This document shows, in pieces, positions 7,033 through 45,300 of a DNA stretch of 45,610 nucleotides. Origin of the DNA: Atractiella rhizophila (lineage: Eukaryota); NCBI GenBank assembly GCA_021432655.1, contig MU271331.1:4902-50511 (forward strand). The letters are read 5' to 3'. A program made the translations under genes and the position numbers. The first letter of the stretch is position 1; every line of letters begins with the position of its first letter. The notes under the pieces were generated by a model. That model saw only the letters and a program-made list of their open reading frames with translations. It did not search any database and had not been told where the DNA came from.

Positions 7033-8776
<1,744 letters not shown>

Positions 8777-20877: not shown

Positions 20878-21376
20878 TCACCTTACAAAGTACCACTCCT
20901 GCCACCACCCCACCGCCAACCAAGCCAAAGTGAGCACATCGACAGTCATAGCCATCTTAAGAGCAGGGCTTCTCCAATTAGTCGTCCTATAGAATCTCCA
21001 CTCAAGGGTCCAAAAGACGACAGCGACGACCAAAGTGAAAGTAGCGATCTCATACACCTGTTGATTCCCCAAATGATACGCCGCATACATTCTCGCGAAA
21101 CCAGAAATCATAGTCCATCCGCCGAATTGGCGGGCTGAAAGTCCGGTCACTTGTCCAGGAACAAGGGGGAACATTTCGAGTGAGGATGGCGGAGGTGCGA
21201 CGGGGGAGGTGCCGGAGAAGTAGGAGAGGTAGGTGTTGAGAAAGCATAGGAAGGCAATCTGGTTTTATAGATGGATAGGTTCGGTGAATTGAGGGGTTTG
21301 GAAGCGTGAGGAGAGTCTCGAAACTTACGAAAAGAAACCAATAAGGCAACAGCCCGTTTTCTGTTGAGGGAAGCAT
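20878..21376 (-). CDS. ERG28: Ergosterol biosynthesis scaffold protein Erg28
   Basis: GLLPYWFLF, QVTGLSARQFGGWTMISGFARMYAAYH, VYEIATFT and LEWRFYRT; small membrane protein with one intron. Confidence 0.9.
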
Positions 21377-22545: not shown

Positions 22546-23125
22546 CTTGATTTCCTCATCGTTCTTTTGTACAAAAGTGACACGAAGACGAGCGCGGAAT
22601 CTTGGAGAAAAGAATTTATGATTTGTTTATGAAACCGTTATGCAAGGCTCATTTGCTCCTCTGCAGCAGCATAAGTTATGTGCATGGGCGGAAGGGATCC
22701 CTTGAGCCACATTGACACAATCAACGTGGTTACGCTCCTACTTTTATACAACACAAGCGACTTCCAACAACAGGAGATAGCACACCTCTACCTCACACCT
22801 TTCTTAGGCCGTTTGAACTCATAACCCTGCCCTGCCGCCAGTAGTGACGCGGTCAATATAAGAATCCCTGCCGAATCCATCCATGCGGCACCCTGTATAT
22901 TCCTCTCCGCCACTTTCCTGTACACATAAGATCGTAAGAGGCCTCCCTCTACTCTTTTCCAACTCTAGCATCTAGCATCGTTCTTCCTTCGTCGTTCGAT
23001 TGGATGACCTCAGCCTTCTAACCAACCACACAACTTCTCCACTTCAGCTTGACAACATTTTCACAAAGCAACACTTCTGCACTGCTGGACTGAACTTAGC
23101 CCAACTACTTTCCCTCGCCAGCACG

Positions 23126-26031
<2,906 letters not shown>

Positions 26032-26304
26032 AGTTCGGGCTGTCAGGTTAGATAATCTATTATCAAAAGTGGATATTTACTATCTTAGAGAGTCATAATA
26101 TACATGTCCGCTGTCACATTACTTGATTGGGTTGGAATATCAATGGCACCAAGGCCGGTCAGGTTACTGAAACAATGCTTAAGTGAAATCAATGAAAGAA
26201 GACCGAATTAACGACGAAGGAGCTGAACTGAACAGGGAGCAGTCATAAGCCTGCTCCTCGACCTCTGGACTCCACCACCCACTCTCCATTGAGGTCTGGA
26301 TCGA

Positions 26305-29300
26305 CTACTGCATCATAGAGGAATCTCCGTTCCCATTCAGAGGTCGAAAGGTCAATCCTCTCTGTTGGACATCTGCCCTTGGAGCAGAAGGTGTCGCAGT
26401 GCCAGACGGTGAGGGATCAATGACGATCATTTCTCCTGATCGTTGAGGCGATAAATTTGCGTTCAGCGACCCGAATACCTCCTCTGTCTTGACGGGGATA
26501 TCGAGGCCTTCTTGTAGATAGAAAGTTTCCTCTTCAGGGCGAACATGGGTATCTAGAGGTCGAGCGTTGGGCTCATCAGATGGTAGCGCAACTGGGATGT
26601 CATCTTCGCCCGAACCCTCAATGGCGGAAGCATTTTGTAATGCTCGAGTGATAGTGGACTGAGAGACTTCAACTGCGACGTCTACTGGGATATCAGGTTG
26701 TCCGTCTTGCTCTTGAAACTGCAATCCAGGCCCTGTCTCCGTTGAGGACTGATCCATTTGATCTGCCTCCTGCGCTGTCGATGCTGGCTGCATTCGGCCC
26801 TCTTGTTGCTGCATGACCTCTAGTTCAAGGGGATGAAGTTCCAAAGGCCTGTCACCATCGACACTTTCAGAATAATTTTGAAGAGAGGGAGGGGTGGAAC
26901 GAACCTTCGGATCCATTTGCCGTCCTCCGCTTGAACAAACGAACTTTTGGCTTGTCCAAACCACTGTCTGACCTGGCCAGCACTGACACCTATCCTCAGG
27001 GCGAGCGACTCTCTCTCCGACGGTGAAGCAAAGCCATGATCCCTGACCCATTCCTCCAGCGATCGTTGAGCTAGAATGCAAAGCGAACCATCAGGCCGCT
27101 CAGATTAGATGGGAAAGGGAAGGACGGACCATCGGCTGACATTGGGAGTTTCCTCCTCGTCTGCTTCCCTTGCGGCTTGCACGGTTTGTCTCTCCCGGTC
27201 CCCCAACGATTCAACCTAGCCAACCCAAGACGTCAGCTTGAGCGGGACGGTGTTGAATGACGCACGCGGCTGGAACGTAGGGTCCGCTGCCACTCCTCTT
27301 TCGCGCTCCATTAAACCAACTCTGCACCTGCAGCTTTGTCAAGCCAGTTTTTTGAACCAGTTCTGCAACTTCTTGAGGTGTGGGCTTCAGGGTGCGTACT
27401 GCTGTGGCCTCGAGCTCATTCAAAACTACATGTTCAGGCCGGAATTGGTTAGATATCGCGAAACAAGAAAAGAAAGGAATAACGAACTGGCTTCTGAGAA
27501 ATGTGAACCTCTGGTTTGCATGACTGGCATAGCAGGAAGCTGCATCTCTCCTGCTGCATCCTTCTCTCCCGATACACCCGAGCCTTCTCCCTCTTCCGTC
27601 TCACCGACCACAGCATCTCCATCTCCGCTTCTGAGCACTTGCACATTCACCGGTTGACCCTTGATGCTATCCCATATGCCAATTTTGCGTTAGCCAGCCA
27701 TTTTCTCCACATGGGAAGAGAGCAAGGGAGATGGATACCTGAGCACGCCACGGGACTTGAGGGAACGCCTCAGATGACAAAACCAGGCGTCTACCTGTCT
27801 GAGGGACAGTTGGGTCATTTGGCTCAACTGCTTCTTGCTCTCCTTCAACGGGTACGCGCCGTTCATTTCCACCCACGACGAAAGGACCTGGATCACTGTC
27901 ATTCCGCGACGCGCTCATAAGCCCTTCGCTCATCGGGGTAGCAGGATAGAAAACATAAAAGGGAAGACGTGGACACACCCTCCGCGGGATAAGGCTTTCT
28001 ATGCACTTCTCCTAGTAACCTCGGCTCCTCTCCGCCTCCAGCTCCAACGGTTTCCCGCTTCCCTGCACCACCACCATTACCATCAAGAGAGAACCCATTC
28101 TCCGCTGCGAGAGGGAAGGTTGGACCGGAAGGAGGGACGAAATCGCTCTGGTCGTTGAGAAAACTTGTTGATGCGACGGGGTTTGTCTCCTCCATCGAAT
28201 CGGAGGGTTGTGGTGATTGGTCAAGTGAATGTTGTTGCACAGGAGGAGGAGCAGGGGGAGGTTGTGCTGGAGGGAGAGGTGCCACCCTCCTCGCCCATGC
28301 GAACCAGGCCTCTAGGTCTTCAATGTCGATGTTGGCTTGTGCGCAAAGGTCCTCTTTCACGTCAATTGAGGGATAAGGGAAAGAGATATGGTCTTCTATC
28401 CAATCTCTCAAGATCGAAGCAGCTGCCGCCATACCAACCGTAGGTTAACGTTGTAAAGATAAGAAGTAACTATGGAACGAACAGGAAGTTGGAAGTGGCG
28501 GTGGAAGTGGATGGGTCGGGATGAACCTGTCCCCTGCAGCGCGGAAGAGCCATTCATGAATGCGTTCTAGCGAGATCTCCAAAGTCGCACAGAAGTGCGC
28601 TTTCTCGTCCGGAAACAGGTATGGAAAGGCAAGATGAGAGGCATGCCACGACATCAGTTCCGTGAGAGCTGTTAGAAATAGACCAACGTTAGAACGTTTG
28701 CTAGAAGGAGAGGAAAGGCACTCACCTGCAGTAGGTAGGAGATGACGGGTGAACCAGTCCCGAACTTTTGTGATTGACCATCCCGTTTTACTACTTAGCT
28801 CTTCAAGTTGTTCGTTCGATGGTGTCCACTCTTCTCCTCCCCAATTACGCTCTCTAAAGCTGCACAGTATCTCCTCCACCTCTCTCGAGTCCTCAACCGC
28901 CTCTACCCGTGACGCGTTTTCCACATCTATATCCGCCAAATTGAAACGACCTTCATCCCAGGCAGTTTCGAAAGCAGGTTGGTAAGAAACCGAATGATGG
29001 ACCACTCCACTTTTCTCCAAAAACCAATCTCGAATACTCTCCCCGTTCAACGCCGTCTTCCTCCTCAAAGACTCCATCTCTTCTCCTGCGGGCACACCAA
29101 CGTCCAGATGCGCCTCCCTCCATTCTTCTAGTATCCTTTTCGCGGTCGCAGGGATTGAACGCGGATTCTTCCTCTTCATCTTCGACGGCCCTTCGCCTGT
29201 GTCTTGGTCTGGATTGTCCCGCGACGCTTCCGACGCCACCGCTTGGGTGCGACGACGCTTGGGACGCCGGGGAATGGCAGTCGGCGCTGGTCCAGGGGGT

Positions 29301-29414
29301 CGATCGACGGGTCGAGGTATAGTCATTGTTATGGCGGTTTGTGTGCTGGAGCAAGTTAGCATTTCACCCCTACAAAAGGCTGTGAGGAAGTGCTTACGTC
29401 CGAGCCAAGTGCAT
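26305..29414 (-). CDS. Multi-homeodomain protein: seven tandem degenerate homeodomains plus acidic/Pro-rich C-terminal tail (about 850 aa, about 10 exons)
   Basis: Phase-consistent GT-AG splicing yields seven L..W.....P.....L...(TG)L....V..WF repeats (see findings). The start may be ATG 29414 (through one intron) or ATG 29326. Confidence 0.85.
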
Positions 29415-30288
29415 ACGATGCTGGCTCAGATGATATCGCTGTAGAAGTTTCTTTATTATTTAACAAGATGGTCGATTATATTCCAAGTTCTAACCTTATT
29501 GAACGGTCAAATTTTATCTTTTCTTCCGCCCGCAACTACTGCTGCGGTCGCAATGTTATTGGGATCAAGATGTCTTCTTTCTTTGGATATCATACATGTC
29601 ATATATCATGCGTTGATGCTACACCTCTGATTTCCCAGTCTCCTCTGGGTGGAGGAGTATGAAAACTCGCACCCTGTCCGCACCCATAGATACAGCTGCC
29701 CTTGTGTCCTCGAAAGCTTGGCTGCCAGTGCTTCTCTTTGCACTATTTGGTCTCTTCAAGCAACGGTGATTTATGCACAAAGCGTCAAACAGCCTAGCTT
29801 GAAGTTATATGGGCTCAGAAATGGGTTTTACTTCGCCGTGGCTCCTTGTTCTACCTCATTCCATTTCTCGGATTGTGGCAGCAAGCTTGCATCTATTTCT
29901 GCTCATCCAAAGGACAAAGGAACGGATAGGATGTCAGCTCACCCGTCAGGGATTATTGGAGAGCACGAGAGCCGCTCTAGTGCTCAAGGAGATCAGTTGC
30001 TAATTTCCTCAGAAAAGATGCATCACGTCTTGAGTAGCCGACAACCCTTCTTTGCTTTAATATCCAGGACATGAAATCGACGTGATGTCATGATCCAGAA
30101 TCAATAGACACGTACCTATGATGTAGAAGACCCACCTATGTTGTAGACTCTAAGTGATCCTTTGCAAGAAATGTCGCTTCATGGCCAGAAGAGAACTCAA
30201 CTCATGCTATTTGTGCTATGCCAACTGTAAATAACTGAGCTGAGAGAGACGGACACCATCAGTCCCGTCATACGGAGCGACATCTCAT

Positions 30289-40375: not shown

Positions 40376-42392
40376 TCGTGTACTCCAAATTAACTCACTT
40401 GTTACGAATATGTACCACTGGACAGTGGGTGAAGGTGACTAACTGTACATACTTTGCTCTGATTATTCGATAGTCTCATCGGGCAGAATTGAAACAAAGA
40501 TAGCAAGTAGATAAGATGAGAAGCTGAAAATACAGAATGACGGCTCAATTTTTAACTTGCTGCACTGACTGCAGCTGTCTAAGGTGTAAGCTTGCCGTGG
40601 TGATGCGACCTTTTTTTTTTATGTATTGCCTATCACCCGTTTCAGGTTGCCGCTTCACATTCATTTGCTTGACATTTTAGACAATCATGTGAGGAAAAGC
40701 GAACTACAGGTCCACCATCAGTACGTGGCAGGGCAACAGTATTTCGACCGCCCAAGCTAGGGGGGATACACGGTATCCATCAGTTGTAAATACTTGCTCT
40801 CTCATCCTATCCTTGAGTCGGTGTTTTGCCAAGCCACACAACAAGGTGGTTTGACCACTAAAGGATTTTAAAAAAACATCACCGCAGACAATTGAAGACT
40901 TTTGAAAGGCGAGACGCACAGGCATAACGCAGAACAAGACCTTCAGTCTATCCATGGAAGAGGGAGAGAGAAATCCTCTCCTGCATATACCGCTCCTCCG
41001 CATTCAGAACAGGCTTCCGCCAAAAGAGCTCAAGCGCTCAAGCATTCGCAATCGTTGACCCGTCGCCGATGCACTTATTTTGTCCGTCAAGGCGACAAGG
41101 TCGGGAGTAAGGTTGTGGAGCGACGTGGATCGTCAGCTAGTGTTTTGAGGGCAATGCTACGCTGGAAGAGCTACCAATAGTCCCGACTAGGGCACATTTC
41201 ACCGCTCCTCGAGCTTTCACGGTTCATCAACTTCGATCCATACGTCGTATTCAAGGTATTAACAAACGTAAGCACCCCGTGATCAATCCCAGGCCAGATA
41301 GAGAGAGGGCTCTTTCACGGGTCGATGAGAGCGATTGGCGCCAATTGGGGCTCGGTTCACGAGCGTGGTAAGATGGAATTTAAGACGAAAAGAAGTATGA
41401 AGACGACGATGAGATTTGGTTTTTGTGGATGACTCTCATTGTGATCAGGTGCCATTGCATCGATTAAAGAGACGTGTGACGAGAGCAGACCGAGTATGTA
41501 GAAGGACGGGTGCCCATCTCGCCATGGTCTCCATAGCTCCTGTTCTAACTCTTAAGCGAGCCGAACGGCACTTGCAGCAAGTAAAATCAGTTGGAACGGC
41601 AATAAAAGTCGCCTCGCTCGTCAGCACAAGCAGACAGGAATACACAGTCCAGCGAACCAGAAGGATTGTTGAAGATAAACAATCCACTAACTTAACTCAA
41701 ATATTTCTCCATCTTAATGAAGGGATCCATCTGAATGTGAGCGAGTTGCAGAAGACGAATTCTGGAACCATGCTTCCTCCTCTCGCCATTGCTTCGGCTT
41801 CTCGAGAACATTAACTGAACAAAAGACTCACTTTCGAACGCTACATTCACTGAGTTCAAACCACCAAACAGCCATAAATCCCCGTATTGTACCCACGCCC
41901 GGTGATCCGACTCCGCCGCCTTTGAACGATTTAGCGCAAGTGCGATGCGATAGAGTACTTCCATCTAATCAGTTTCATCACCATCCTGATCCCAGCTCAG
42001 CGTCCCCGCCTCCCATCGACTATCATACGGCAGCGAGCGATACCATAGATTCTTCACAGGTTCTTCGTTCATCTTCGTGGTTGTTGTTCTCAACGTGAAA
42101 TCGCGTTCGCATCGGCCGACCGGTTGGCTGAGTTTTCAAATCCTTCCCAACTCAACCCAGCCTCCTGCAAAACACGACCGACTTCTCTCGCCTGCATACG
42201 CTCATATTTAGATTATTGCTGCTATGTTCGCTAGGCTGTAGGCTGGTTGGATGGCAAGATATCTGTGCAGTGTCAGCTGCTGAGGTCATATACAAGCAGC
42301 ATCTCAGGTCCGTCTGTCTCTTTTCCGCTTTGCGGGTGGAAGGTGACGACTACGCATGCGTATCTATCAAAGACAGGAGACAGGAGAGCATA

Positions 42393-45300
42393 ATGTCGCC
42401 CCCACCGCTCTCTCCCTTTCAATCTCCGTCCCAACTTCCCCCATCACGCGAATCCTCACGTTCGACCGCCACTTCCTCTTCCATCAAAGAACGACGCAGG
42501 CTCTCCCTCTCCCTATCGACCGTCTTCAGCCCACACTCACGTCCAGGATCCGTCTCCAGCTCTGTGGAAGGCGCAAAAGACGGCGAGAGGAAGTTCAACA
42601 CCGTTTCTTCCATATCCACCAACAGCTCTGGATCTGGGTCTGGTCTTGGAGAAGTTGTGGGAGTCGCGAGAGGGCGAAGGACGGTGTTGGGGATGGGAAG
42701 AGGGGAGAGGAGCATGAGCGACCCATGGGGCTGGGAGATCGAGCACAGCCAACTCAAACCGAACACTCAACCCCAACCGTCTAACGTTGTCAACGACAAC
42801 TTGAACGTCAGCGCCGAGGCGGCTTCAAACGGCATAGCCAACGGCGAAACAAGGGATGACGAGAAAGAAGCAGGTTCCCAACTGGGTCTGATGGGAAGGA
42901 TGCGAGCTAAAGTCGGAGGCAAACCACCGAGCTCCTACAAGGTGCCGTATCTCGTACTCTCCATCGACGCCGGGAATAGAAGTAGGACTACCTCCACAAC
43001 CTTGGCTTCATTGTCGGGCTCCAGGTCAAATACCCCCACCATGCTCACGAAGAGATCCTCAATACAGACCGTCCCTTCCCCTCTGACCAGTTCTGCTTCC
43101 TCATCAGTCGACATCAAACGTTTCTCCTCTTCTCCCTCGCCTCCTTTCGCCCCCCTCACGCTCTCTCCTCCTCCTTCGCTGATGTCCAGATCGACCTCTC
43201 CAACATTCCAACCTTCTCCCATCACCTCATCCGCTCCAGGTCGAATTCCCTCTCCACTGCCCTCCCCTCTCCACCTGTCTCCCCCAAGTCACCACTCTTC
43301 CCTGTCAACCCCCGCTGCCTCTCCCGCCCTCTCAAACCGAGTCTCCATGCTCTCTTCTACCTCTGGCCTTTCAGGTACATCTTCCCTCCTCGCAGATCCA
43401 CCAGCAGAAGCAGTCATCACAACTGCCCGCACGACGTTCGTCCGCAGGGCGACAGCACCGACATCTGTTCCTACTGTCAATCTAGGGACTGGGACTGGAA
43501 GTGGAGTTGGAGGTGGAAGATCGACTTCGGAGCAGGTGAAGGGAAAGAAGGATTTGGAGAAGGAGGGCGAGGATTGGCTCCCTCAACGGTTACGGAACGT
43601 TCCCATCCCTCCACTAAGCGCCAACACCTCAAGTCCGACCACATCCTCACACAATTATACCTCGATTTCCGCTGCGAATTCTCCCGTCAATCAGTCCTTC
43701 CCTGCCCACACCTCTCATCCCAACTCTAAGGGAAAGGAGAAGGAGAAGGAGAAGGAGAAGGAGAAAGAAAAAGGGAAAGAAAAGGATCAGAAAAAGCCAC
43801 CAACCTCGTTTGGGCTTTCACGACCGAATGGAAACGGAAATGGAATGCCGATCGTTGGGAAGGGACGGACGACGCGGAGTGGAAGCGCTGATGCTGGGAC
43901 GAGAGGAACGGGGGAGGAGAAGAAGGGATTTTGGAAACGAACGAGGGGAGGATCTATTGGACAACTAGCTTTTCTTGGATACTCTTCCTCGAAAACTTCA
44001 GCTTCTACATCCTCAAATGCTAGCGGGAATGCGAATGCGAATGCGAATGTGCTACCGTTCGGAAATAAGCCAAAGTCGTCAATCTCCTCTTCGGTGGAAG
44101 GGAAGGTGAGGGGACAGAGCAACAATTCTTCGTTTACTTCGCTCCATGCTAGTATAGAGAAAGAGGTAGGAGGGAGAGGGAAGATGAAGCGACTTTTTGG
44201 AGGGGGAGGCAGGGAAGGAGGGATATTCAAACGTCGGTCTCCTGCAGTCGGTGCGAATGAGAATGGGATGGGTATGGGGGAGACGTCGACGAACGGAGAT
44301 GATGACGAGATGGAAATCATGGACTCTTATCCCGATCTTGCAGCCGAGTCTGTTCAGTCGCATTCGCATTCGCATTCCATCTCCCTTTCCATCTCCCAGT
44401 CATCCGACGGCCATCCTCGCTACAGTTATGACATGGAGCCCGATTCACCTCATCCTTCCCTCGATGGAGTCGTTGTGGGAGGAGGAGGAAAAGTTCTCGC
44501 ACAGGAACCCATCGTCTCTGTCGACGTCCTCCGCTCTCTCGATTTGGATATTGAGCAGGAACAAGGGGAGGGCGAAATGGGAGCAGGGGTGAAGCGCACT
44601 TTGTCCACCCAAAGCCAAGGCCTGGAGAATGGCCTCTCCGCGCCGCCGAGGAGGAAGAGGACAGGGGAAAGGATCGGCGTTAGACCTGGTTGGTCGAGGG
44701 AGGAGAGGGAGAAGGACAGAACGGTGATTACGTACGCTTTACCGCCTCACTCTCTTTTCTTTCTGACTTAAATCATTGATATGCTCTTGGTAGAACGGAT
44801 AAGTGGCGAGACATTTCTATCACTATCAATCAAAGACGGGAGGCTCAGGCTGAAGGGAAACGACGTGGAAAAGACGTCGGAGAGGAAAGTAGAGGAGGGA
44901 TTCGGTTGAAGGCTTCTGACAGTGGGATTGGGGGAATGGAAGAGGTGGAATTTGGGAAGAAGGCTTCGATCGGGTCTCTTAACTCTAGTGGGACTGTCGA
45001 AGAGGACGAATTCGATAGGACCATTCCCTCGAGAAAGAATAATTTTAATCACTTCCCGACTGGCATGGACGAGTACGAAGGGGTGGGGTTGGGCATACAG
45101 CTCACTCCTCCACAGAAGAGACCGACTGTCGTGACCCGAGATTTGGGGAGGAAGGAGAAGGCGGGATTCCATAATTCGAACCCTGAGCTTCCGAGAAGCT
45201 TGACTCCCACCCTCAGAAGGCGGAGAGGAAGCAGCGTCCACGAAGAAGAGGAGGATGACTCGTTTTCGCTCTTGGAGCGAGAAGATGAGGACACGGCGAG

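What the first reader, a model, noticed from the sequence alone, without database searches (positions are those of the whole stretch)
26305..29414. One gene encoding seven tandem homeodomains, mixing TALE-like and typical types
Seen: splicing at phase-consistent GT-AG sites gives seven homeodomain-like repeats. HD1 (~29012-29176) KRKNPRSIPATAKRILEEWREAHLDVGVPAGEEMESLRRKTALNGESIRDWFLEK. HD2 (~28742-28885) EVEEILCSF...TPSNEQLEELSSKTGWSITKVRDWFTRH. HD3 (~28536-28669) LMSWHASHLAFPYLFPDEKAHFCATLEISLERIHEWLFRA. HD4 (~28290-28423) ILRDWIEDHISFPYPSIDVKEDLCAQANIDIEDLEAWFAWARR. HD5 (~27760-27998) RKPYPAEVIQVLSSWVEMNGAYPLKESKKQLSQMTQLSLRQVDAWFCHLRR. HD6 (~27295-27512) RGSHFSEAILNELEATAVRTLKPTPQEVAELVQKTGLTKLQVQSWFNGARKR. 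HD7 (~26945-27165, absent from the ORF track and only visible after splicing) RRKLPMSADAQRSLEEWVRDHGFASPSERESLALRIGVSAGQVRQWFGQAK. Known: fungal homeobox proteins, including HD1/HD2 mating-type factors, usually carry one homeodomain; long arrays are better known from animals (ZHX, ZFHX, nematode multi-homeobox genes). HD3 and HD4 have the TALE PY(P) loop while HD6 has typical spacing. Inference: this may be a poorly described lineage-specific poly-homeodomain regulator or chromatin protein built by internal duplication.
Basis: partly seen in the sequence, partly recalled or inferred. Interest (0 to 1): 0.85.

Follow-up and report, generated by a model that had tools for sequence, protein, structure and literature searches.

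The report
Fungal gene with seven homeodomains
A root-associated basidiomycete fungus carries one real, spliced gene for a protein with seven very divergent homeodomain folds in a row, a layout known from animals, plants and protists but not found described for fungi, and its function is untested.

Summary
Window 26305-29414 (minus strand) is one gene of 10 exons and 9 GT-AG introns. Its spliced product is letter for letter the 852-aa NCBI 'hypothetical protein BT69DRAFT_1319714' of Atractiella rhizophila. Contigs of one public run skip all nine introns.

The protein carries seven homeodomain-like units. Three (HD4-6) pass Pfam's threshold on their own. Four (HD1, 2, 3, 7) do not, but match a profile built from other proteins' homeodomains. 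AlphaFold2 gives confident three-helix bundles for HD1, 2, 4, 6 and 7, a partial one for HD5 and a poor one for HD3.

Loop lengths are mixed: TALE-like in HD1, 3 and 4; intermediate or typical in HD5-7. None of the seven keeps Asn51. HD2-4 are acidic; HD1 and HD5-7 are basic.

Five units share a phase-1 intron at the same homeodomain position, which points to old exon-unit duplication.

No orthologue turned up among 1.84 billion representative proteins. The nearest hits are unrelated multi-homeodomain proteins of protists and animals.

Most likely it is a lineage-specific, multivalent nuclear regulator. This is a new variant of a known kind, of moderate interest.

The parts
26305..29414 (-). 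Whole coding region: 10 exons, 9 GT-AG introns, 852 codons plus stop. It is the NCBI hypothetical protein BT69DRAFT_1319714 (P0001).
   Evidence: the rebuilt CDS is identical to P0001. (all nine introns skipped in contigs of run X2).
29243..29275 (-). Basic Pro/Arg/Lys-rich stretch (aa 30-40) inside a basic N-terminus (aa 1-65, net +8). A nuclear-import signal is inferred from composition only.
   Evidence: sequence; charge. The function is an inference.
28988..29176 (-). HD1 (aa 63-125). Basic N-terminal arm, TALE-length loop, W113-F, position 51 = Glu, net +2.
   Evidence: Own profile 1.4e-9. Pfam alone 12.4 bits, below the cut-off. AF2 helices 72-84/94-103/107-118 at pLDDT 93-97.
28726..28912 (-). 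HD2 (aa 151-213; its last residues run into HD3). Loop about 5 residues longer than typical, position 51 = Arg, net -5.
   Evidence: Own profile 1.6e-9, helices 2-3 only. Pfam alone 20.1 bits, below the cut-off. AF2 helices 157-173/183-193/197-208 at pLDDT 71-90.
28514..28735 (-). HD3 (aa 210-264, spans intron 28725-28669). It abuts HD2 with no arm of its own. FPYLFP loop, W252-L, position 51 = Arg, net -3. This is the weakest unit.
   Evidence: Own profile 4.8e-8. Pfam alone 15.8 bits. AF2 gives only two helices at pLDDT 38-52.
28268..28516 (-). HD4 (aa 264-326, spans intron 28482-28423). Best TALE-like unit: FPYPS loop, position 51 = Trp, Arg53 kept, net -6.
   Evidence: Pfam Homeobox_KN 1.1e-10, 41.6 bits. 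Own profile 1.9e-15. PDB sequence hits to PKNOX1, MEIS and Exd/PBX. AF2 pLDDT 91-97.
27747..28012 (-). HD5 (aa 412-472, spans intron 27978-27896). Loop +1, position 51 = His, Arg53 kept, net +5.
   Evidence: Pfam KN 3.2e-8 and PF00046 8.5e-6. Own profile 1.2e-11. PDB hits to TGIF1 and TGIF2LX. AF2 helix 421-434 plus one long helix 439-470.
27280..27521 (-). HD6 (aa 524-583, spans intron 27487-27426). Typical loop length, WFNGARKR (Asn at position 50, Gly at 51), Arg53 kept, net +3.
   Evidence: Pfam KN 2.6e-9; PF00046 2.5e-6 aligned without net indel. PDB hit to Paired 1fjl, 3.5e-3. AF2 helices 530-547/551-561/565-579.
26925..27163 (-). HD7 (aa 606-665, spans intron 27129-27071). Basic arm, typical loop length, position 51 = Gln, Lys53, net +2. 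A small hairpin and helix follow it (aa 661-688).
   Evidence: Own profile 1.9e-9. Pfam alone 16.3 bits, below the cut-off, on a piece lacking the arm. AF2 helices 615-628/633-643/647-660 at pLDDT 94-97.
28669..28725 (-). Intron 2 (57 nt), phase 1, in the codon 39 residues before W48 of HD3, which is homeodomain position 12.
28423..28482 (-). Intron 3 (60 nt), phase 1, same homeodomain position in HD4.
27896..27978 (-). Intron 4 (83 nt), phase 1, same homeodomain position in HD5.
27426..27487 (-). Intron 6 (62 nt), phase 1, same homeodomain position in HD6. A variant contig skips 64 nt with two other letters between.
27071..27129 (-). Intron 8 (59 nt), phase 1, same homeodomain position in HD7.
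29346..29397 (-). Intron 1 (52 nt), phase 2, after codon 6.
27667..27738 (-). Intron 5 (72 nt), phase 2, in the linker after HD5. The shorter side of the joint in the contig is 29 letters.
27216..27265 (-). Intron 7 (50 nt), phase 2, in the linker after HD6.
26849..26904 (-). Intron 9 (56 nt), phase 2, after HD7.
   Evidence: One search used a cut one base off, which gives the same protein.
26308..26796 (-). C-terminal tail (aa 690-852). Predicted disordered, acidic (net -18), rich in Pro, Ser, Gln, Glu and Asp. Inferred to be an activation or interaction region.
   Evidence: pLDDT below 50; composition. The function is an inference.

Best explanation
Shown: this is one transcribed, correctly spliced gene of Atractiella rhizophila. 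It encodes an 852-residue protein with seven divergent homeodomain-type three-helix modules, joined by disordered linkers.

Inferred: the protein is a lineage-specific, multivalent nuclear transcription regulator.
- The basic N-terminus directs nuclear import.
- The basic units are the ones able to touch DNA. These are HD1 and especially HD5-HD7, which have basic arms and Arg or Lys at position 53.
- All seven lack Asn51, so any DNA contact must be non-canonical, of low or unusual specificity, and strengthened by multivalency.
- The acidic TALE-length units HD2-HD4 act as protein-docking modules.
- The acidic, Gln/Pro/Ser-rich tail recruits the transcription machinery.

Origin (inferred): the array arose by old tandem duplication of an exon unit bounded by phase-1 introns, followed by strong divergence.

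The confidence given is for the whole statement, mechanism included. That it is one real gene encoding seven homeodomain-like units I hold at about 0.9.
For: Identity and expression:
- The CDS is identical to P0001.
- All nine introns are skipped in contigs of run X2.
- Of 35 coding differences seen in those contigs, 21 are synonymous and 14 are not. This count covers 40 of the 48 differences that one search shows; 5 lie in the 3' UTR. The excess of silent changes fits a frame under constraint.

Seven homeodomains:
- Pfam on the whole protein gives 5.7e-40 and 1e-20.
- A profile built from other proteins finds seven hits.
- No other hit appears in the six frames of the window.
- The AF2 bundles are described.
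- Foldseek's top rows are all homeodomains, for example Exd 4cyc_B (TM by target 0.85, rmsd 0.7 over 51 columns), MEIS1 5ego_A (0.90) and the DUX4 double homeodomain.
- PDB sequence hits go to PKNOX1, TGIF, MEIS, PBX and Paired.

Division of labour:
- Net charge is HD1 +2, HD2 -5, HD3 -3, HD4 -6, HD5 +5, HD6 +3, HD7 +2. The N-terminus is +8 and the tail is -18.
- The median for 484 homeodomain windows of the relatives is +4.
- Arg53 is kept in HD4-6 and is Lys in HD7.

Duplication:
- Five phase-1 introns lie 39, 39, 37, 36 and 36 codons before W48. Once loop length is allowed for, that is the same homeodomain position.

Precedent:
- ZHX proteins are nuclear regulators with four or five homeodomains (abstracts listed).
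- Part of the ZHX homeodomains serve protein-protein contact (passages of PMC2893186).
Against: - No function was tested. Nuclear import, DNA contact and activation are read from composition only.
- Position 51 is E, R, R, W, H, G, Q. By established knowledge (recalled, not from a call), Asn51 is the key base contact, so the protein may not bind DNA at all.
- Four units fail Pfam's threshold on their own, and HD3 is not folded with confidence.
- My profile was built from proteins that had been selected by likeness to P0001, so it leans towards it.
- The kind of run X2 is not on record, so 'transcript' is inferred from the intron-less joints.
- No orthologue is known, so conservation cannot vouch for function.
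- The shared intron position could instead be an ancestral homeodomain intron.
Confidence: 0.5

Rival explanations
1. A scaffold or co-regulator that does not bind DNA. All seven homeodomains have become protein-protein modules, as in HOPX or parts of ZHX and Homez. The protein would bridge or sequester other transcription factors, possibly other homeodomain proteins.
For: - Asn51 is absent in 7 of 7 units, and Arg53 is present in only 3 of 7.
- HD2-4 are acidic, pI 4.4-5.9.
- Among 479 homeodomains of the multi-homeodomain relatives, only 230 of the 462 with a residue at that column have Asn51. Loss therefore goes with array architecture.
- ZHX2 HD2 has a disrupted DNA site but dimerises (passage of PMC2893186).
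Against: - HD5-7 and HD1 keep basic arms and a net positive charge, and HD4-6 keep Arg53.
- No partner is known.
- HOPX is recalled from memory, not from a call.
Confidence: 0.28
2. A natural single-chain equivalent of the basidiomycete HD1/HD2 heterodimer. TALE-length and typical-length homeodomains are fused in one polypeptide, so the protein would be active without a partner of another mating type.
For: - TALE-length units (HD1, 3, 4) and typical-length units (HD6, 7) sit in one protein.
- Some X2 contigs are only 90-95% alike (6 of the 20 laid), so a diverged second allele exists.
- That artificial and natural HD1-HD2 fusions are active in Ustilago and Coprinopsis is recalled knowledge, not from a call.
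Against: - There is no second, divergently transcribed homeodomain gene anywhere in the 45.6-kb window.
- The neighbours are LETM1 and Erg28.
- No Pfam family other than homeobox types matches.
- The nearest relatives of each unit are not fungal: 0 of 13 organism-named relatives.
- Allele divergence was not compared with the rest of the genome.
Confidence: 0.05
3. A young or decaying lineage-specific gene. It is transcribed and spliced, but its homeodomains are degenerating and it has no conserved function.
For: - No orthologue or close paralogue.
- Degenerate key residues in every unit.
- Four units fall below Pfam's threshold.
- Long disordered linkers: 446 of 852 residues have pLDDT below 50.
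Against: - An intact 852-codon frame runs across nine introns.
- Five units are still predicted as confident bundles.
- Synonymous differences outnumber the others, 21 to 14, between the assembly and the variant contigs.
Confidence: 0.1
4. The locus is really several adjacent small homeobox genes that were merged by the annotation.
For: One in-frame ATG stands just before HD4, at the end of intron 3.
Against: - Every one of the nine exon-exon joints is present in contigs.
- Single contigs link exons 7 to 10 and exons 2 to 4.
- The frame is open across all joints.
Confidence: 0.02

Closest known systems
Vertebrate ZHX1-3 and Homez (zinc fingers and homeoboxes)
   Same: Four or five homeodomains in one chain, separated by low-complexity linkers. 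Most units lack Asn51: ZHX-type hits P0035, P0076 and P0129 read T/D/E/D/K-like at that position. They are nuclear regulators, and some of their homeodomains serve dimerisation (abstracts; passages).
   Different: ZHX proteins have two N-terminal C2H2 fingers (PF18387); this protein has none. There is no collinear or specific similarity, and hits are at the general homeodomain level only. ZHX is restricted to chordates according to the abstract of PMC7144352.
Multi-TALE-homeodomain proteins of unicellular holozoans and other protists (Chromosphaera perkinsii, Creolimax fragrantissima, Choanoeca flexa, Cyclotella meneghiniana; unnamed metagenome proteins with 7 to 15 units)
   Same: These are the best sequence hits. 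P0002 scores 9.4e-24 and has 7 units. P0004 has 9-10, P0007 has 7, and P0005, P0009, P0012 and P0014 have 4-5. They are arrays of Homeobox_KN-type units, many without Asn51.
   Different: Identity is only 28-36% over single units, and there is no unit-by-unit correspondence. These are therefore independent arrays, not orthologues. None is fungal, and none has a described function that I saw.
Marchantia polymorpha MpBELL2/3/4
   Same: TALE-class proteins with more than one homeodomain, labelled a, b and c (passages of PMC8476127).
   Different: They have two or three units rather than seven, they are plant BELL-class proteins, and they have a known role in the haploid-to-diploid transition.
Basidiomycete mating-type HD1/HD2 proteins
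   Same: Same phylum. One TALE-type and one typical-type homeodomain work together (recalled knowledge; general statement in the abstract of PMC8305134).
   Different: Those proteins carry one homeodomain each and are encoded as a divergent gene pair. Here there are seven in one chain and no partner gene in the window.
DUX4 double homeodomain and nematode multi-homeobox proteins (HOCHOB type, e.g. the Caenorhabditis nigoni protein P0043)
   Same: Tandem homeodomains in one chain. The DUX4 HD1-HD2 structures are the top Foldseek rows. P0043 has 7-8 units, none with Asn51.
   Different: They are animal-specific typical-class units. DUX4 keeps canonical DNA contacts (recalled). There is no specific sequence relation.

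Membership tests
Homeodomain superfamily (Pfam PF00046 / PF05920) | Match to the family profile above the curated cut-off | tested here: met
   Whole protein: PF05920 135.3 bits and PF00046 73.7 bits, against cut-offs of 24 and 22.9. Per unit, only HD4, HD5 and HD6 pass; HD1, 2, 3 and 7 score 12-20 bits.
Homeodomain superfamily (Pfam PF00046 / PF05920) | Three-helix bundle fold | tested here: met
   AF2 gives HD1, 2, 4, 6 and 7 as three helices at pLDDT 71-97. HD5 has two helices and HD3 is poor. The Foldseek top rows are homeodomains, with TM by target up to 0.90, but all E-values are 0.018 or higher.
Homeodomain superfamily (Pfam PF00046 / PF05920) | Trp48-Phe49 in helix 3 | tested here: met
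   WF in six units and WL in HD3.
Homeodomain superfamily (Pfam PF00046 / PF05920) | Asn51, the base-contacting residue (feature recalled from general knowledge) | tested here: not met
   Position 51 is E, R, R, W, H, G, Q in HD1-7. HD6 has Asn at position 50.
TALE superclass | [quoted passage not shown] | tested here: inconclusive
   Met in HD1, HD3 and HD4, which align without gaps to the TALE-based profile (39 codons from intron to W48 in HD3 and HD4). Not met in HD5 (+1), HD6 and HD7 (0), or HD2 (about +5, my own count).
TALE superclass | Isoleucine at position 54 (as stated in PMC3360767) | tested here: not met
   Position 54 is G, L, G, R, R, K, S (read).
ZHX family | Two N-terminal C2H2 zinc fingers of ZHX type (PF18387) ahead of the homeodomains | tested here: not met
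   No zinc-finger family appears in the Pfam scan of P0001 at E up to 1. The ZHX-type hit P0035 does carry PF18387.
Basidiomycete mating-type HD locus | Divergently transcribed pair of HD1 and HD2 genes | tested here: not met
   The six-frame profile scan of the whole window finds homeodomains only in this gene. The large ORFs upstream match no Pfam family.
Basidiomycete mating-type HD locus | Multi-allelic, highly diverged N-terminal dimerisation region; linkage to mating type | not testable with these tools
   Variant contigs exist, but no genome-wide baseline and no second strain could be examined.

The most novel reading that the evidence does not exclude
The protein is a natural single-chain fusion of TALE-length and typical-length homeodomains that does the job of the basidiomycete HD1/HD2 heterodimer by itself. 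It would be a built-in 'self-compatible' developmental switch in an early-diverging Pucciniomycotina lineage, and the diverged second allele seen in the run reflects mating-type-like balancing selection.
Probability: 0.05. Interest if true: 0.8.

Novelty: new variant of a known kind. Interest (0 to 1): 0.42.

Why it matters
Fungal homeobox proteins are normally treated as single-homeodomain factors. An expressed seven-unit array in a basidiomycete shows that poly-homeodomain proteins arise independently in fungi too, as they have in chordates (ZHX), nematodes, liverworts and protists.

The array splits into an acidic TALE-length block and a basic typical-length block, and it has lost Asn51 completely. 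That makes it a compact natural test case for two questions: what homeodomains do once they stop reading DNA in the canonical way, and how exon-unit duplication builds such arrays.

Practical weight is limited. It is one orphan gene in one species, without a phenotype.

Tried and rejected
- Whole genome of the window: none is held. Paralogues, a canonical HD1/HD2 pair elsewhere and genome-wide heterozygosity could therefore not be examined.
- The look-up of sequencing runs: no RNA holder listed. Run X1 laid one 196-letter contig on 26417-26612, a small share that I do not use as evidence.
- Word-index protein searches returned only the protein itself.
- Protein atlas: feature scores were 0.76-0.82 and structure TM was 0.19 or lower. 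These are leads only (ZHX, oomycete and chlorophyte homeobox clusters).
- Complex prediction, HD5-7 block against HD2-4 block: no verdict, score 0.00. This says nothing either way about an intramolecular contact.
- Collinearity with other arrays: unit-by-unit score matrices against 8 multi-homeodomain hits show no diagonal. I rejected orthology of whole arrays.
- Recent internal duplication: rejected. The units are 22-38% identical, and only three families of 19-24-nt chance-like DNA repeats were found. One search was a strand slip, which one search corrected.
- Each unit scores better against foreign homeodomains than against its sister units. I do not read this as evidence against internal duplication, because the foreign set was picked from 1.8 billion proteins for likeness to this one.
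- Earlier findings of the scan: nothing by sequence, by place, or by five combined words.
- Literature: six searches listed no paper on a fungal protein with several homeodomains. The listings were read as titles and abstract starts only. The library lacks most subscription journals, so this does not prove that nothing is in print.
- Several-genes reading: rejected.
Full report
**What is there**

The stretch lies in a eukaryotic, intron-bearing window of about 44-55% G+C. Translating the largest exon (window 28727-29326, minus strand) gave a 100% match to one database protein. This is the 852-residue 'hypothetical protein BT69DRAFT_1319714 [Atractiella rhizophila]', stored as P0001.

I rebuilt the coding sequence from the window. 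The ATG is at 29414 and the stop ends at 26305. There are ten exons and nine introns, and the introns have GT..AG ends. The product is identical to P0001 over all 852 residues.

**Splicing and expression**

No listed run is on record as RNA. When the two listed runs were laid on 26200-29600, contigs of run X2 (kind not on record, year 2013) skipped exactly the nine annotated introns. The skips were 52, 57, 60, 83, 72, 62, 50, 59 and 56 bases, each with CT..AC ends on the plus strand.

Eight joints have 34 or more letters on the shorter side, and one (27666/27739) has 29. Single contigs link exons 7-10 and exons 2-4. Depth is present in 29 of 30 bins. An intron-less joined form at all nine GT-AG sites is what cDNA gives, and I read it so, but the run's kind is not documented.

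Six of the 20 contigs laid are only 90-95% alike, so a second allele or haplotype is present. One search shows 40 of 48 differences. Five of these are in the 3' UTR. Of the 35 coding ones, 21 are synonymous and 14 are not: 8 to 4 inside the homeodomain helices and 13 to 10 elsewhere. This is weak support for a frame under constraint. The several-genes alternative is close to excluded.

**Are there seven homeodomains?**

All seven peptide strings of the finding occur in P0001. The helix-3 W[FL] pair sits at residues 113, 203, 252, 314, 460, 571 and 653.

- Pfam, whole protein: Homeobox_KN at 5.7e-40 (4 stretches) and Homeodomain at 1e-20 (3 stretches).
- Pfam, one unit at a time: only HD4 (41.6 bits), HD5 (33.7) and HD6 (37.2) exceed the 24-bit cut-off. 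HD2 (20.1), HD7 (16.3 on PF00046), HD3 (15.8) and HD1 (12.4) do not. The pieces for HD5-7 lacked the first ~11 residues because of the introns.
- Own profile: built from 479 homeodomains of the other 155 fetched proteins, with P0001 excluded. It finds exactly seven domains, with independent E-values from 1.9e-15 (HD4) to 4.8e-8 (HD3). This profile leans towards P0001, because its members were retrieved by likeness to it.
- Control: run over all six frames of the 45.6-kb window, the profile hits only these seven. The next best hit is E 0.41.
- AlphaFold2 (147-row alignment; mean pLDDT 60.7; pTM 0.38): three-helix units at pLDDT 71-97 for HD1, HD2, HD4, HD6 and HD7. HD5 comes out as a first helix plus one long helix. 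HD3 has only two low-confidence helices (pLDDT 38-52). The linkers and the last 160 residues are below 50.
- Foldseek against the PDB: no row at E 0.001 or better for this long, mostly disordered query. The top rows are all homeodomains: DUX4 double homeodomain, Exd, MEIS1/2 and TGIF1, with TM by target up to 0.90 and rmsd 0.5-0.7 Å over about 51 columns.
- PDB by sequence: HD4 matches PKNOX1, MEIS and PBX/Exd. HD5 matches TGIF1 and TGIF2LX. HD6 matches Paired.

Taken together there are seven units by sequence, five confident by fold with HD5 partial, and three by Pfam's per-domain threshold. HD3 is the weakest.

**Anatomy**

*Loop length between helices 1 and 2*
- HD1, HD3 and HD4 align to the TALE-type profile without gaps. 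HD3 carries FPYLFP and HD4 carries FPYPS.
- HD5 is two residues shorter than TALE (+1). HD7 is three shorter, which is the typical length.
- HD6 aligns to PF00046 without net indel, so it is typical.
- HD2 has about five extra residues by my own count.

*Key residues*
- Position 51 is E, R, R, W, H, G, Q. No unit has the Asn that normally contacts the base. The role of Asn51 is recalled general knowledge, not from a call.
- Position 54 is never the Ile that PMC3360767 names as TALE-typical.
- Arg53 survives in HD4-6 and is Lys in HD7.

*Charge*

| Region | Net charge | pI |
|---|---|---|
| HD1 | +2 | 9.4 |
| HD2 | -5 | within 4.4-5.9 |
| HD3 | -3 | within 4.4-5.9 |
| HD4 | -6 | within 4.4-5.9 |
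| HD5 | +5 | 9.9-10 |
| HD6 | +3 | 9.9-10 |
| HD7 | +2 | 9.9-10 |
| N-terminal 65 residues | +8 | not quoted |
| C-terminal 163 residues | -18 | not quoted |

The median for 484 homeodomain windows of the relatives is +4. The N-terminus contains a Pro/Arg/Lys run. The C-terminal tail is rich in Pro, Ser, Gln, Glu and Asp. HD2 runs straight into HD3, which has no N-terminal arm of its own.

**Origin of the array**

HD3, HD4, HD5, HD6 and HD7 each have an intron in phase 1. These introns lie 39, 39, 37, 36 and 36 codons before Trp48. After allowing for the loop lengths (+3, +3, +1, 0, 0), that is the codon of homeodomain position 12 every time. Exons 3 and 4 are symmetric phase 1-1 exons that hold one unit each.

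This is the footprint expected from tandem duplication of an intron-bounded unit. HD1 and HD2 share one exon and lack this intron.

The duplication must be old. The units are only 22-38% identical to each other, and the DNA holds only three families of 19-24-nt chance-like repeats. An ancestral homeodomain intron at that position is an alternative that I could not test.

**Relatives**

HMMER read 1.84 billion representative proteins. It found 150 with E at or below 1e-3, 14 at or below 1e-10, and only the protein itself at or below 1e-30. The best foreign hit (P0002) scores 9.4e-24 at 28% identity. The word-index searches found only the protein itself.

The strongest hits score well because they too have many homeodomains. 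By my profile, 13 of the 156 proteins held have seven or more units. That count includes P0001 and three near-identical cluster members, and the range goes up to 15 (P0113) (Pfam counts).

I looked up 30 hits. Fifteen clusters carry a name and 13 name an organism:
- Chromosphaera perkinsii (4)
- Choanoeca flexa (2)
- Creolimax fragrantissima
- Cyclotella meneghiniana
- Caenorhabditis nigoni
- Acrasis kona
- Mucochytrium quahogii
- Cochlearia groenlandica
- Brachionus calyciflorus

None of them is fungal.

Unit-by-unit score matrices against eight arrays show no diagonal, so the arrays are not collinear orthologues. Across these relatives, Asn51 is present in only 230 of 462 homeodomains, so its loss is common in arrays. 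Losing it in all units also occurs elsewhere, for example in the ZHX-type hits and in P0043.

**Surroundings**

There is no other homeodomain anywhere in the window. Downstream and convergent lies a LETM1-type gene (LETM1_RBD plus EF-hand pieces, 24390-26031, plus strand). Further on are an Erg28-like gene (minus strand, about 20881-21264) and a zinc-type dehydrogenase (7709-8515). The large ORFs upstream match no Pfam family. Nothing in the window looks like a divergent HD1/HD2 mating-type pair.

**How it most likely works**

*Shown:* one spliced gene; seven homeodomain-like modules on disordered linkers; an acidic block (HD2-4) and a basic block (HD5-7, plus HD1).

*Inferred:* a nuclear, multivalent regulator.
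- The basic units, with their arms and Arg/Lys53, touch DNA in a non-canonical and probably low-specificity way that multivalency reinforces.
- The acidic TALE-length units dock proteins.
- The acidic tail recruits co-factors.

ZHX proteins are the working precedent. They have four or five homeodomains, are nuclear, form homo- and heterodimers, and in some units the DNA site is disrupted while protein contact remains (abstracts listed; passages of PMC2893186).

The main rival is a pure scaffold with no DNA binding, which the complete loss of Asn51 favours. Less likely rivals are a decaying orphan and a single-chain HD1/HD2 equivalent.

**Novelty**

The protein is in NCBI as a hypothetical protein with precomputed homeobox domains, so the sequence is not new.

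Six literature searches listed only animal cases (ZHX, ZFHX, DUX4, nematode), plant cases (MpBELL2/3/4, passages) and an oomycete paper for multi-homeodomain proteins. They listed no fungal case. I read titles and abstract starts only, and the library lacks most subscription journals.

Two earlier notes of this scan describe a Naegleria double-TALE protein and a giant-virus TALE homeodomain without Asn51. They add context only, and I did not test them.

I file the gene as a new variant of a known kind: an independently arisen, fungal poly-homeodomain protein. It is not a member of the ZHX family, because the zinc fingers were tested and are absent. It is not a mating-type HD pair, because a partner gene was tested for and is absent.

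**Verdict**

Interest is moderate, because the gene is a single orphan without a tested function, in an architecture that has several precedents outside fungi.

Noticed in passing
window 26200-29505 (run X2 laid): Six of the 20 contigs laid are only 90-95% alike, and 48 single-base differences were reported. A second, fairly diverged allele or haplotype of this gene is therefore present in that run. Whether this is ordinary heterozygosity or special to the locus is unknown.
   Followed up: partly
window 22976-26031 (+), convergent with the gene's 3' end: LETM1-like gene: LETM1_RBD at 2e-23 in ORF 24390-24860 and an EF-hand pair in ORF 25516-26028. Its end lies about 270 bases from the stop of the homeobox gene.
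   Followed up: no
window 20881-21264 (-) and 7709-8515 (+): Erg28-like protein (2.8e-20) and a zinc-binding dehydrogenase domain (8.1e-24). These are ordinary housekeeping neighbours.
   Followed up: no
window 42132-44771 (+): An uninterrupted 879-codon open frame with no Pfam family at E 0.001 or better.
   Followed up: no
proteins P0113, P0087, P0004, P0037, P0091, P0058, P0067: Unnamed metagenome proteins with 6 to 17 homeodomains, encoded as single uninterrupted frames. Examples are 1666 aa on a 5.3-kb contig, and a 374-aa six-unit protein on a 90-kb contig that one source labels 'XRE-family HTH'. The organisms are unknown. These are long intron-less homeodomain arrays outside animals.
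   Followed up: no
window 27423-27488 (tables 5 and 5c): One variant contig joins intron 6 two bases further on and has two other letters at the joint. This is probably the second allele rather than alternative splicing.
   Followed up: no
P0001 aa 661-688 (window about 26802-26937, across intron 9): Directly after HD7 the model shows a small beta hairpin and a helix at pLDDT about 70-94, with no family match.
   Followed up: no
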